Source of the DNA: a virus
Taxonomy: Duplodnaviria > Heunggongvirae > Uroviricota > Caudoviricetes
Virus record (IMG/VR): IMGVR_UViG_2537562190_000016
Strand: one strand, 5' to 3'
DNA: 29,568 bases
Within the stretch, counting starts at the first letter, position 1; each line of letters starts with the position of its first letter. Below are positions 6,001-9,000 of this stretch, piece after piece. The position numbers were made by a program.

Positions 6001-9000
6001 CCGCCGACAGAAAATGAAAGTAAAGAAAAACAAAAAAGCCGCCAGTGTCACCCACTGACGGCCAACGCCGGGAGCCGTGATTATGGCATTCAGGCTCTGC
6101 TAAAAATGCCAGATAACATTCCGGCCTCCCCCGATTCAGGTTATAAATGACACAATATCTTGACAACATCCGTCACTGTCTGTCAGAAAATGTACTGCCA
6201 TATAGAAGCAACATGTGAAGTACATCTATCCTTTTGAGCCAGCACCTCTCCACCGAAAGTCAGTGCTGGCTGTTTTTTTCCTTAATAAGGCATCTGTAAC
6301 TGAAACAATCCGCATATTGATAATATATTGACAGGCATCATTGCTGTCTGTGAAAAATAAGTCTCTACAAACATATAAGGCCTTTTAGCCAGCGTCTTCT
6401 TTTTCAGGTCAGTCGCTGGCTTTTTTTATTATGCTGCCGGTGCATTTATCTCCAGCATCAGACTTTCTATCTCAACGCCATACGCTGCATTTTTTGTAAC
6501 ATCCGTCAGCGTCAGCGCATTCAGTCCCAGTGTCAGACTGTCTTTTATAACCTGGAATGCCGGGCCAGCCACTCCATTCAGTTTCGGAGTAACCGTGGCA
6601 CTGCCGGCGGTGAACACCAGCTCCAGCGTCTGCCAGTCGTTACCGTAATCGCCGAACTCCCCCAGCTTCGTGTTTCCGGCTTTCCTGTGATGCATCAGAT
6701 TCACTCTGCCGTCAGTGGTCTGAGTGAAGTACGACATCAGGAACGGATTACCGGTACCCGTCATCGCCACACCATCAGGAACGGGAGCATCCGTATACAG
6801 ATAAATCCCCAGCCCGAACTGATTGTTGGTCAGTGCGCCTGACAGGCGGAACTTACAGGTCAGTCTGCCGCCCTGTGTCAGCAGGGTAATTGCGTCATCC
6901 ACCGGATGCGTCAGGGACCAGGTTTTATTGCTCTGCTTGGTGATCTTAAATACACCATCTAACAACTGAATTCCGCCATCCTTAATGCTCCAGCCCTGCG
7001 CAGCAGCCTCTCCGGCTGCCGGCAGCAGGGAGATTGTGCGAACGGACGTATCTGCAGACGGACCCGATGGCGTGTTGCCGCCGGGCGAGGGTTTGATTTC
7101 CGGTGCCTTACCACTGATGAAGGCTGAGGTGCGCCCGGCTGCGTTCAGAATAGCGGTTGCCAGACGATCCGGAATAATGCTCCTGCGCGCCCATGAACTG
7201 AAATGTGTCGGGCGGTTTGATGATACCTGGTTTCCATTCGTTCTCGATGCCGCACCGTAATATCCTGATGCCGGAATATCCGGATCTTCTGCCGGCGCGT
7301 TAGTGGCGGTATTGACGCCGTTACCATCTGTCATGAAGGGCACAAAATAAACGCCCTCACTCTCCCTGTTTTTATACCCGCCGTACACGGTGTCGTACTG
7401 GGTAGCGTATGTATTTTTCCAGTAATACGTCGTGTCACCACAAACCCACGGCACATCTGCAGCACTGCCACCATGGCACTGCGCGTTAAACACGGAGAGG
7501 TCAGCACGAAACTGTGTCAGCATGGCTGTAAACAGCGCAGGTTGCTGTGCGTGGGTGGCGGCGCTCATGTCAAACTCACCCTGCATCCAGCAGACGGCCA
7601 GCAGAACGTTTTTGGGATTTTTCTGCAATGCCGCTTTTGTGCGGGAAATCAGATCCTGATATAACGGCTTGCCCACCCCCCAGCGTGCCGAATCCTGACT
7701 GGCCCCCGTGGACTCGCTGAATGTCCCCTCCGCGCCCTGGGTAAATGCCGAACCACCACGACAGCATGGTACCAGCAGGATCCCCGCGTTATTCGGGATA
7801 TACGGGAGCAGTTTTTTGGCAATATGTAAACCCTGACCGACACAGCCGTACTGCCCTTTGCTCAGGTCAGCCCTCGGATGATTCAGCGTACTCATATCCT
7901 GCACATCATGCAGACAGTGGTCAGCCGGAATAATATCGTTATATCTGCAGGCAGCCCCGCCCGGCGTCACTGTACTGCGGCGCGCCAGCTGTTTAATGCG
8001 CGGATCCGGAGCATCGTATGAATCCGGCAGCGGAAGCCCTTCACCGTAAGCCATGGCATTGGACTGCCCGGCCAGTACGATGACGTAGTACCAATCCGGC
8101 TCAGATGAAGGGCCGACCTGTGGCTCTCCTTCAATAGCCACCGCCTGCATCAGTGTGTACGGCGTAATGGCAACCGGTCCGCCGTATGGCTGCCAGCCCT
8201 CTTTCAGTTTGTGTGTCAGCTTTTCCGCAAGGTCTGACGGCGACGCCGCCCTGACAACATCGTAATGTTTAATCGACATCGAATTTCTCCCGTGTAGAGG
8301 AACAGAGTTAAAAAGCCGGAAGCGGAATCAAATCACAGGATGACCATCTGCCAGTGGCAGGTCATAAAAAAAAGGCTGCGCAATGCGCAGCCAGAACTCA
8401 CAAGGAAAATGATAAAAGGAATAACACTAGTGATGTACGCATGGCGCCTCCCGCTAAGTTCTGCAATGATCAAACAGAACTCGCTACGTGCCCTTAAAAC
8501 TCGATCATTTAGCCCCTCCAAGGAGGATTCACCATGCGGTTGATTTTTTAATAAACAGTAAACAAAAAAGTCAAGAATTATTCATTCTGTTCTTTCATCA
8601 TCGGCCACAGCAATACCACAATGCCGCAGACCAGAGCGCCATCAGTCAGTACCAACATTATCCTGCTGGTGAAATCCATCATCACCATCACTAAAAGCAG
8701 GATCACAACAGCAAGCAGACACAGTTTATAAAACAATGTTCAGAAAACGCATTCAGCATGCCTAAGGTTCTATTCCTACGAATAGCCAACTTGCAACTTA
8801 AAATATTATTTATGCAGCCAATTAAATTCTGGTCCTTACAATATCAACCTGAAGATTCTTATCTTGTGCTGATTGATAAATGACAAACCTTTTACTACCT
8901 GCATTGAAAGAAGTAGACAAAACCAGACAATTATCATAACGAGCAAGAACATAATACCAACCATCATTATAATTAATCATTTCATATTCTTTCTTAAACT

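What the first reader, a model, noticed from the sequence alone, without database searches (positions are those of the whole stretch)
6160..6427. Two paralogous hairpin/T-run units antisense to the late operon, between nanS-p and S: candidate small RNAs
The 450-bp gap between nanS-p and the pinholin gene contains two similar modules on the plus strand, opposite to all surrounding genes. Each has a TTGACA hexamer (6162 and 6329) and a ctgtctg motif, then ends ~80-100 nt later with a related stem-loop and T7 run (ccttttgagccagcac...gtgctggctgttttttt, and ccttttagccagcg...cgctggcttttttta). These hairpins are terminators only for plus-strand transcripts, so they are not the late-operon terminator. 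The -10 elements are weak, so the promoter assignment is uncertain.
Basis: seen in the sequence. Interest (0 to 1): 0.55.

Follow-up and report, generated by a model that had tools for sequence, protein, structure and literature searches.

The report
Known prophage small RNA PasA, tandem pair
The two hairpin units are real. The first is the published Hfq-dependent prophage small RNA PasA; the second is its diverged tandem copy, already listed as candidate EcOnc52, so this is a correct rediscovery and not a new element.

Summary
Both units are in the sequence, with coordinates off by 1-2 nt, and are far beyond chance. The window is 99.5% identical over 4 kb to prophage PP2 of EPEC E2348/69, so published coordinates transfer directly.

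Unit 1 is PasA, window 6195-6279 (+), 85 nt. PasA was shown by Northern blot, is Hfq-stabilised, and has 41 RIL-seq partners (Pearl Mizrahi 2021). Its EHEC homologue is EcOnc51 (Tree 2014).

The published minor 236-nt PasA isoform maps to 6195-6430, so it reads through terminator 1 and stops at the unit 2 terminator.

Unit 2 corresponds to EcOnc52 and to the RIL-seq element "pasA.E2348C_0688.IGR", which is always the second RNA in chimeras.

The units are true paralogues: 81% identity, z=9.3. Both carry TTGACA-N15-TGT-NANAAA, a consensus -35 with an extended -10 and an 18-nt spacer. In unit 1 this places +1 at the mapped PasA 5' end.

The tandem layout is the norm: 90 of 109 informative locus strands in a viral-contig sample. 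PasC looks like a unit 1 5' half fused to a unit 2-type terminator.

Still open is whether unit 2 has its own promoter. The published survey does not report this tandem paralogy.

Verdict: already known, low interest.

The parts
6160..6189 (+). Promoter-like element of unit 1. It has -35 TTGACA (6160-6165), an 18-nt spacer, extended -10 TG (6181-6182), and the weak hexamer CAGAAA (6184-6189). It would place +1 at about 6195.
   Evidence: One search finds the pattern twice in the window, with 0 expected. Searches show the stretch is nearly invariant in 27 distinct variants, while the sequence just downstream varies. Promoter function is inferred and was not tested.
6195..6279 (+). pasA, an 85-nt Hfq-dependent small RNA (major form). 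The variable 5' domain is about 6195-6225. The published seed GCCAGCACCU is at 6238-6247 and overlaps the 5' arm of the terminator.
   Evidence: Published coordinates NC_011601 743499->743415 (-) map to these positions through a gap-free alignment with one mismatch in 461 nt, which lies upstream of the transcript. The Northern probe matches 6247-6271 exactly.
6237..6279 (+). Intrinsic terminator 1, made of stem 6237-6247 / 6258-6271 and U7 at 6273-6279. It is partly read through.
   Evidence: The fold is. Across 23 variants, 98.7% of cells are paired and 2 pairs show compensatory changes (C-G to U-A, A-U to G-C). The phage 434 record annotates it as a terminator.
6328..6357 (+). Promoter-like element of unit 2. 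It has -35 TTGACA (6328-6333), an 18-nt spacer, TG (6349-6350), and hexamer GAAAAA (6352-6357). It predicts +1 at about 6363.
   Evidence: It is paralogous to the unit 1 element. The -35, the TG and the hexamer vary in only one of 17 aligned variants (A to G in the hexamer). The element is kept behind four different upstream junctions, IS629 among them. Function was not tested. A rival candidate is CTGAAA-18-TATATT at 6300-6329.
6363..6430 (+). Body of unit 2, about 66 nt. It corresponds to EcOnc52 and 'pasA.E2348C_0688.IGR'. It is also the 3' part of the 236-nt minor PasA isoform (6195-6430).
   Evidence: EcOnc52 (Sakai Sp4 1181998-1182075, -) maps to about 6362-6439. The genome-version offset is not verified. 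A RIL-seq RNA2 fragment at 743267-743294 maps to 6400-6427. The published minor end 743264 maps to 6430.
6387..6427 (+). Intrinsic terminator 2, made of stem 6387-6394 / 6414-6421 and a U run to 6427. The stem is of the PasC type.
   Evidence: The fold has z=-3.5. The terminator scan calls only a shorter hairpin, 6406-6422, that overlaps the 3' arm. It is annotated as a terminator in phage 434. The stem is identical to that of PasC, and locus L048 carries the exact PasC hairpin on a unit 2 body.

Best explanation
The region holds a tandem pair of paralogous small-RNA genes. They are transcribed from the prophage opposite to the late (lysis) operon, between the sialate O-acetylesterase gene nanS-p and the pinholin gene S.

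Unit 1 is pasA. Transcription most likely starts at about 6195 from a consensus -35 / extended -10 promoter. It ends at terminator 1 (6279), giving the 85-nt PasA.

PasA is bound and stabilised by Hfq through its terminator hairpin and U tail. It pairs in trans with many mRNAs through the seed GCCAGCACCU. One target is the 3' end of the neighbouring nanS-p mRNA.

A minority of transcripts read through terminator 1 and stop at terminator 2 (6427-6430), giving the 236-nt form.

Unit 2 (EcOnc52) is a diverged copy with the same promoter-like layout and a PasC-type terminator. It probably also makes its own RNA of about 66 nt (6363 to about 6428).

What is shown by published experiments on identical sequence:
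- The identity of unit 1 as PasA.
- Both 3' ends.
- Dependence on Hfq.
- The RIL-seq partners.

What is inferred here:
- Both promoters.
- Independent transcription of unit 2.

The physiological role of these RNAs is unknown.
For: - Window 5194-9194 is 99.5% identical to E2348/69 PP2. The intergenic alignment has no gaps and 1 mismatch.
- Table S6 of PMC8550237 gives PasA as 743499->743415 (85 nt, major) and ->743264 (236 nt, minor). It also gives the probe sequence and the EHEC homologues EcOnc51/EcOnc52.
- The main text reports Northern validation and Hfq-dependent stability.
- Table S5 lists PasA with 41 partners, as RNA2 in 94-100% of fragments. It lists the unit 2 region with 5 partners, as RNA2 in 100%.
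- The ratio of unit 2 to PasA chimera fragments is 0.024 in activating conditions and 0.47 in non-activating conditions. That hints at separate control.
- Both units share the promoter-like composite pattern.
- Conservation is near-complete up to about 6191, lowest at 6192-6225, and high again over the seed and terminator. This fits a transcription start at that boundary.
- The tandem order P1-T1-P2-T2 is found on 90 of 109 informative locus strands.
- Unit 2 survives alone with its TTGACA behind IS junctions.
- The terminator 1 stem shows compensatory changes.
Against: - Both -10 hexamers match the consensus at only 3 of 6 positions and lack the conserved final T. The generic promoter scan did not call them.
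- The published PasA 5' end comes from RNA-seq coverage and blot size, not from 5' end mapping. Zhu et al. read the blots as processing from a longer transcript.
- RIL-seq reads at the unit 2 terminator could all come from the 236-nt read-through RNA.
- EcOnc52 was not tested by Northern blot. Its reads cannot be assigned to one prophage copy. Its coordinates refer to an older Sakai genome version than the one I could read. On the same assumption EcOnc51 maps to about 6223-6299, roughly 20-28 nt off PasA.
- Rfam has no model for these RNAs, so no independent covariance test against a curated family was possible.
Confidence: 0.85

Rival explanations
1. Unit 2 is not a gene of its own. It is a decayed duplicate that now serves only as the back-up terminator and 3' extension of PasA, and its TTGACA is a relic.
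For: The published 236-nt minor PasA isoform starts at the PasA 5' end and stops at terminator 2. The authors filed the unit 2 region under PasA. The -10 is weak. Unit 2 gives far fewer chimera fragments than PasA in activating conditions, 119 against 4983.
Against: In 17 aligned variants the unit 2 promoter-like motif varies at only one position in one variant. It is retained behind four independent upstream junctions that remove unit 1. The EcOnc52 peak is 78 nt, with a 5' boundary mapping near the predicted +1. The unit 2 to PasA fragment ratio changes about 20-fold between conditions. As in unit 1, the most variable part of unit 2 is the stretch just after the predicted start.
Confidence: 0.4
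2. The RNAs act mainly in cis, as antisense RNAs to the late transcript. They pair with the nanS-p 3' UTR / S leader during induction, or their convergent promoters interfere with late transcription, and so tune lysis timing.
For: Both units are fully complementary to the late-operon transcript that must cross this gap to reach S. A sense-strand fragment at window 6182-6200 (-) is recovered in Hfq chimeras. The arrangement is conserved next to the holin gene.
Against: The 41 RIL-seq partners of PasA are trans-encoded mRNAs that share a motif complementary to the seed. PasA lies more than 210 nt upstream of the S start codon, so it cannot mask the S ribosome-binding site. No data on induced lysogens were available.
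Confidence: 0.15
3. The hairpins are only terminators. They stop antisense transcription coming from the right end of the prophage from running into nanS-p and Q, and the RNA products have no function.
For: The curated phage 434 record labels both simply as 'terminator' on this strand. The scan found 4 terminator-like sites in this stretch against 0.7 expected; only one of them, 6406-6422 (+), overlaps a unit hairpin (unit 2). The other three are two late-strand sites and one inside the S gene.
Against: A discrete 85-nt RNA accumulates, depends on Hfq, and forms specific chimeras through a conserved seed. The sequence upstream of the RNA 5' end is more conserved than the RNA's own 5' domain. 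That is not expected for a bare terminator.
Confidence: 0.05
4. The repeated TTGACA...CTGTCTGT modules are binding sites for a phage or host DNA-binding protein and are not promoters.
For: The CTGTCTGT motif is invariant in unit 2 and changed in only one unit 1 variant. It has no assigned role beyond supplying the TG of an extended -10.
Against: The motif sits exactly where an extended -10 would be, 18 nt from a perfect -35 and 6 nt before the mapped RNA 5' end. There are only two copies and no dyad symmetry.
Confidence: 0.03

Closest known systems
PasA (pathogenicity-associated sRNA A) of EPEC E2348/69 prophage PP2; EHEC homologue EcOnc51
   Same: The sequence is identical over all 85 nt. It has the same flanking genes (SASA esterase, class II holin), the same strand, the same terminator and the same seed.
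   Different: Nothing in the sequence differs. Expression in this particular host was not measured.
EcOnc52 (Hfq-CRAC candidate sRNA, EHEC Sakai prophage Sp4) / RIL-seq element pasA.E2348C_0688.IGR
   Same: Unit 2 aligns with the Sp4 locus over its whole length. It is identical apart from a 2-nt loop deletion and a 2-nt insertion before the U run. It has the same position, abutting the esterase stop codon.
   Different: In Sp4, unit 1 has been replaced by IS629. EcOnc52 was never validated by Northern blot or 5' mapping.
PasC (E2348/69 prophage PP5; phage 2B8)
   Same: The upstream region and first 7 transcribed nt match unit 1. The terminator stem AGCCAGCG/CGCTGGCT and the 3' flank TTTTTTTATTATGCT match unit 2. 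Locus L048 has the exact PasC hairpin on a unit 2 body.
   Different: PasC loci carry a single unit, not two. This looks like a unit 1/unit 2 hybrid, either a deletion between the tandem copies or the ancestral single state. No PasC-type (P1-T2) locus appeared among the 120 viral-contig loci.
AgvB / AsxR anti-sRNAs (Rfam RF02702, RF02703) of EHEC prophages
   Same: They are prophage-encoded and Hfq-bound. They are antisense to the late operon, with a conserved 3' part and a variable 5' domain.
   Different: They are 51-60 nt and lie upstream of nanS-p in the moron site. Their sequence is unrelated, and Rfam finds no match in this window.
Tandem duplicated sRNAs such as PrrF1/PrrF2 (with read-through product PrrH) in Pseudomonas and OmrA/OmrB in E. 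coli (from general knowledge; both pairs are cited in Zhu et al.)
   Same: Two adjacent paralogous sRNA genes on one strand, each with its own terminator. There is also a longer RNA made by reading through the first terminator.
   Different: There is no sequence relation. Independent transcription of the second copy is not shown here.

Membership tests
PasA sRNA | Sequence matches the published 85-nt PasA and its Northern probe | tested here: met
   Window 6195-6279 is identical to NC_011601 743499-743415 (-). The probe reverse complement matches 6247-6271 exactly.
PasA sRNA | Lies between the sialate esterase gene and the holin/lysozyme genes of a lambdoid prophage, on the opposite strand | tested here: met
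   Pfam finds SASA/DUF1737/DUF6645 for ORF 6429-8279 (-), P21 holin for 5775-5981 (-), and lysozyme for 5278-5775 (-).
PasA sRNA | 3' stem-loop followed by a U tract (intrinsic terminator and Hfq site) | tested here: met
   Fold. 98.7% of cells are paired, with 2 compensatory pairs.
PasA sRNA | Conserved seed GCCAGCACCU that overlaps the terminator arm | tested here: met
   Present at 6238-6247. It is unchanged in 20 of the 23 aligned sequences; L067 (GCCAGTACTT) and the two PasC rows differ.
PasA sRNA | Expressed as a discrete Hfq-dependent RNA | not testable with these tools
   This was shown for identical sequence in E2348/69. It was not measurable for this window's host.
EcOnc52 / independent second sRNA | Sequence and position correspond to the Sakai Sp4 Hfq-CRAC peak | tested here: met
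   Alignment A2 with the coordinates. The mapping is about 6362-6439, and the genome-version offset is unverified.
EcOnc52 / independent second sRNA | Own transcription start site | not testable with these tools
   There is only a conserved promoter-like motif. The dRNA-seq tables of Sy et al. 2020 are not held.
AgvB/AsxR anti-sRNA family | Match to Rfam RF02702 or RF02703 | tested here: not met
   No hit at the gathering threshold in the window. No hit up to E=10 in 5950-6480.
HnrS (EcOnc10-12) | Sequence and position downstream of Rz | tested here: not met
   The HnrS locus of Sp9 matches window 3901-4044, not 6160-6430.

The most novel reading that the evidence does not exclude
Unit 2 is a separately transcribed Hfq-dependent sRNA of about 66 nt, with its own extended -10 promoter and its own target set (a PasC-type seed). 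On this reading the pasA locus is a tandem two-gene sRNA cassette plus a read-through product, comparable to PrrF1/PrrF2/PrrH. PasC would then arise by recombination between the two units. The 2026 survey states that pasA copies are not products of tandem duplication. It does not describe this diverged neighbour.
Probability: 0.5. Interest if true: 0.35.

Novelty: already known. Interest (0 to 1): 0.2.

Why it matters
PasA is one of the most connected accessory-genome sRNAs in EPEC. It pairs with type III secretion and bundle-forming pilus transcripts. Its family is present in 699 of 5426 complete E. coli genomes, typically in five places per genome, and in the classical phage 434.

The finding adds no new element. 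It does show that a reader working from sequence alone recovered a validated sRNA and both of its published 3' ends.

The small addition here is that the locus is a diverged tandem duplicate. This explains the 236-nt isoform, the EcOnc51/EcOnc52 pair, and the hybrid nature of PasC. It also suggests a second sRNA that the published survey did not count.

Tried and rejected
- **Rfam.** I ran it at gathering thresholds on the whole window and at E<=10 on 5950-6480. It found nothing relevant, only chance-level snoRNA/U12 hits. AgvB, AsxR and STnc100 are therefore not here.
- **HnrS.** I considered this 66-nt multicopy prophage sRNA (PLoS Pathog 2026) because the size and copy number fit unit 2. 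It was rejected because its Sakai loci lie downstream of Rz and match window 3901-4044.
- **Plus-strand ORFs.** I considered that ORF 5989-6150 (53 aa) or ORF 6215-6331 (38 aa) might be genes, with PasA as a 3' UTR product. Neither has a Pfam match, and the 53-aa product is low-complexity.
- **Published start sites.** I tried to obtain them for Sakai from Sy et al. 2020. No supplementary files are held.
- **Local alignment of the two units.** With strict gap costs it found only the terminator arm. A global alignment was needed.
- **Structure beyond the terminators.** The 5' hairpin in the PasA fold is not supported: overall z=-1.3, and PasA-2 breaks it. The 236-nt isoform has no significant extra structure, z=-1.15.
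- **Covariation in terminator 2.** It could not be assessed because the sampled stems do not vary. The scan pattern fixed them.
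Full report
**Observation**

The hexamer positions are off by 1-2 nt.

Unit 1 has TTGACA at 6160-6165, CTGTCTGT at 6176-6183, a hairpin at 6237-6271 and seven T at 6273-6279. Unit 2 has TTGACA at 6328-6333, CTGTCTGT at 6344-6351, a hairpin at 6387-6421 and a T run to 6427.

Pfam confirms the neighbours. The esterase ORF matches SASA esterase with DUF1737 and DUF6645. The others are a P21-type holin, a phage lysozyme and Rz.

The shared hairpin pattern and the shared promoter-like pattern each occur exactly twice in 29.6 kb, with none expected in shuffles. 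A global alignment of the units gives 89 identical of 110 aligned positions, z=9.3, and 0 of 2000 dinucleotide shuffles reach the score. The halves upstream of the hairpins are still significant on their own, z=3.8.

The units are therefore real paralogues. They terminate plus-strand transcripts only, because no T run follows the hairpins on the other strand.

**Identity**

Rfam has no family here, but the literature does.

Pearl Mizrahi et al. 2021 (PMC8550237) describe PasA, an sRNA in prophage PP2 of EPEC E2348/69. Their Table S6 places it on the minus strand of NC_011601, from 743499 to 743415 (major, 85 nt) or to 743264 (minor, 236 nt).

The window is 99.5% identical to that prophage over 4001 nt. 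The intergenic region aligns without gaps and with one mismatch. The conversion is window position = 749694 minus record position.
- PasA is window 6195-6279.
- The minor isoform is 6195-6430.
- The probe matches 6247-6271 exactly.

PasA was confirmed by Northern blot and is Hfq-dependent. It has 41 RIL-seq partners and is the second RNA in 94-100% of chimeric fragments, the signature of an Hfq-bound sRNA. Its published seed GCCAGCACCU is at 6238-6247. One listed target site is the 3' end of the adjacent esterase mRNA, window 6441-6471.

**Unit 2**

In EPEC the stretch between pasA and the esterase gene is listed separately as "pasA.E2348C_0688.IGR". It has five partners, is always the second RNA, and has a U tract of 7. 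One chimera fragment maps to window 6400-6427, the 3' arm of terminator 2.

In EHEC Sakai, Tree et al. 2014 list two candidates.
- EcOnc51 is in Sp12 at 2237479-2237555 (+).
- EcOnc52 is in Sp4 at 1181998-1182075 (-).

Neither was tested by Northern blot.

Alignment with the current Sakai record puts EcOnc51 over the 3' part of unit 1, a PasA-2-type variant. It puts EcOnc52 over unit 2, at about window 6362-6439. In Sp4, unit 1 has been replaced by IS629, so unit 2 stands alone. The coordinates in that paper refer to an older genome version, so these mappings may be off by some tens of nucleotides.

The curated genome of the classical phage 434 is 100% identical over 6140-6435. It annotates both hairpins as terminators on this strand.

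**Promoters**

The generic scan does not call either TTGACA, because the -10 hexamers are weak. However, both units share TTGACA, 15 nt, TGT, then CAGAAA or GAAAAA. That is a perfect -35, an 18-nt spacer, the TG of an extended -10 and a 3-of-6 hexamer.

In unit 1 this places the start 6 nt after the hexamer, at 6195, which is the published PasA 5' end. In unit 2 it predicts a start near 6363 and an RNA of about 66 nt.

Conservation across distinct variants points the same way (31 full-length sequences, 27 unit 1 variants). Identity is near-complete up to about 6191 and lowest at 6192-6225. It is high again over the seed and terminator. Unit 2 shows the same pattern in miniature.

These are inferences. 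The published 5' end rests on read coverage and band size. Zhu et al. 2026 interpret the blots as processing from a longer transcript. An alternative unit 2 promoter, CTGAAA-18-TATATT at 6300-6329, cannot be excluded.

**Structure**

Both terminators fold as expected. Across 23 unit 1 and PasC variants, the terminator 1 stem is paired in 98.7% of cells. Two pairs change on both sides, C-G to U-A and A-U to G-C. The numbers are small, because all copies are closely related.

The 5' hairpin in the minimum-energy fold of PasA is not conserved in PasA-2, and the overall z-score is only -1.3.

**Distribution and evolution**

The gap sequence is found in 699 of 5426 complete E. coli genomes, with a median of five places per genome. 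It is also in 29 phage records, mostly Stx1a phages.

A pattern scan of viral contigs returned 120 loci. On 90 of 109 informative locus strands the order is promoter 1, terminator 1, promoter 2, terminator 2, with the two hairpins 149-153 nt apart. Unit 2 also occurs alone behind four different upstream junctions, all of which keep GATAATATATTGACA.

PasC of E2348/69 PP5 and of phage 2B8 combines parts of both units. It has the unit 1 upstream region and 5' start, with the unit 2 stem and 3' flank. Locus L048 has a tandem pair in which unit 2 carries the exact PasC hairpin. PasC therefore looks like a hybrid of the two units, either a deletion between them or the single-unit ancestor.

Zhu et al. 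conclude that PasA and PasC share an ancestor. They state that pasA copies are not products of tandem duplication, based on distances between BLAST hits. They do not mention the diverged neighbour. This is the only point where my analysis goes beyond the literature I could read.

**Is unit 2 independent?**

Arguments for:
- Its promoter-like motif is conserved and is kept when unit 1 is lost.
- The EcOnc52 peak is 78 nt.
- The ratio of unit 2 to PasA chimera fragments is 0.024 in activating conditions and 0.47 in non-activating conditions.

Arguments against:
- The 236-nt read-through isoform could account for all reads at terminator 2.
- The -10 is weak.
- No 5' end has been mapped.

I put independence at about even odds.

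**Other readings**

- A pure terminator or insulator role is contradicted by the discrete, Hfq-dependent, seed-using RNA.
- A cis-antisense effect on the late transcript is possible as an extra role, since both units are complementary to the RNA that must cross this gap to reach S. However, PasA lies more than 210 nt from the S start codon, and its recorded partners are trans-encoded.
- HnrS, a 66-nt multicopy prophage sRNA published in August 2026, was considered and excluded. It lies downstream of Rz.

**Verdict**

Interest is low. A modest open question remains about the second unit.

Noticed in passing
window 8366-8537 (-): This is a homologue of the sRNA PasD2 (EcOnc13 family), on the other side of the esterase gene. 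It was placed by collinearity with E2348/69 PP2. The published probe matches 8382-8405 with one mismatch.
   Followed up: partly
window 3901-4044 (+): This stretch is 81% identical to the Sakai Sp9 region that encodes HnrS (EcOnc12), the anti-Hha sRNA. It may be a diverged HnrS-like gene downstream of the lysis cassette.
   Followed up: partly
window 6026-6063 (-) and 6108-6125 (-): Two intrinsic-terminator-like hairpins lie on the late-operon strand between the esterase gene and S. The first is annotated as a terminator in phage 434. Late transcription must read through them to reach the lysis genes.
   Followed up: no
window 6441-6471 (-): The last codons of the esterase mRNA contain a published RIL-seq target site of PasA, motif CUGAUGCUGGA at 6451-6461. 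So the sRNA pairs in trans with its own neighbour's transcript.
   Followed up: partly
window 6182-6200 (-): A late-strand RNA fragment antisense to the PasA 5' end is recovered in Hfq chimeras with PasB in EPEC. It is listed as pasA.E2348C_0689.IGR, 743494-743512 (+).
   Followed up: no
window 21738-21854 and 22377-22491 (-): There are two ALIL frameshift pseudoknots of IS3-family elements about 640 nt apart. Window 21625-22189 and 22260-22830 both match the same IS629 piece, so the IS sequence is duplicated or nested.
   Followed up: no
window 20588-20646 (+): A lambda cIII thermoregulator RNA element is present at 88.5 bits.
   Followed up: no
window 3496-25000: The window is 99.5% identical to the classical phage 434 (OL657226.1) over 74% of its first 25 kb. 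The prophage is therefore 434-like, and phage 434 itself carries this sRNA pair.
   Followed up: partly
L123:48-183 and L054:1521-1656: These are PasA copies in which an insertion cuts the 3' arm of terminator 1 (GTCAGTGCT|TGTAGTGG). They probably correspond to the terminator-less 'PasA-3' of Zhu et al..
   Followed up: no
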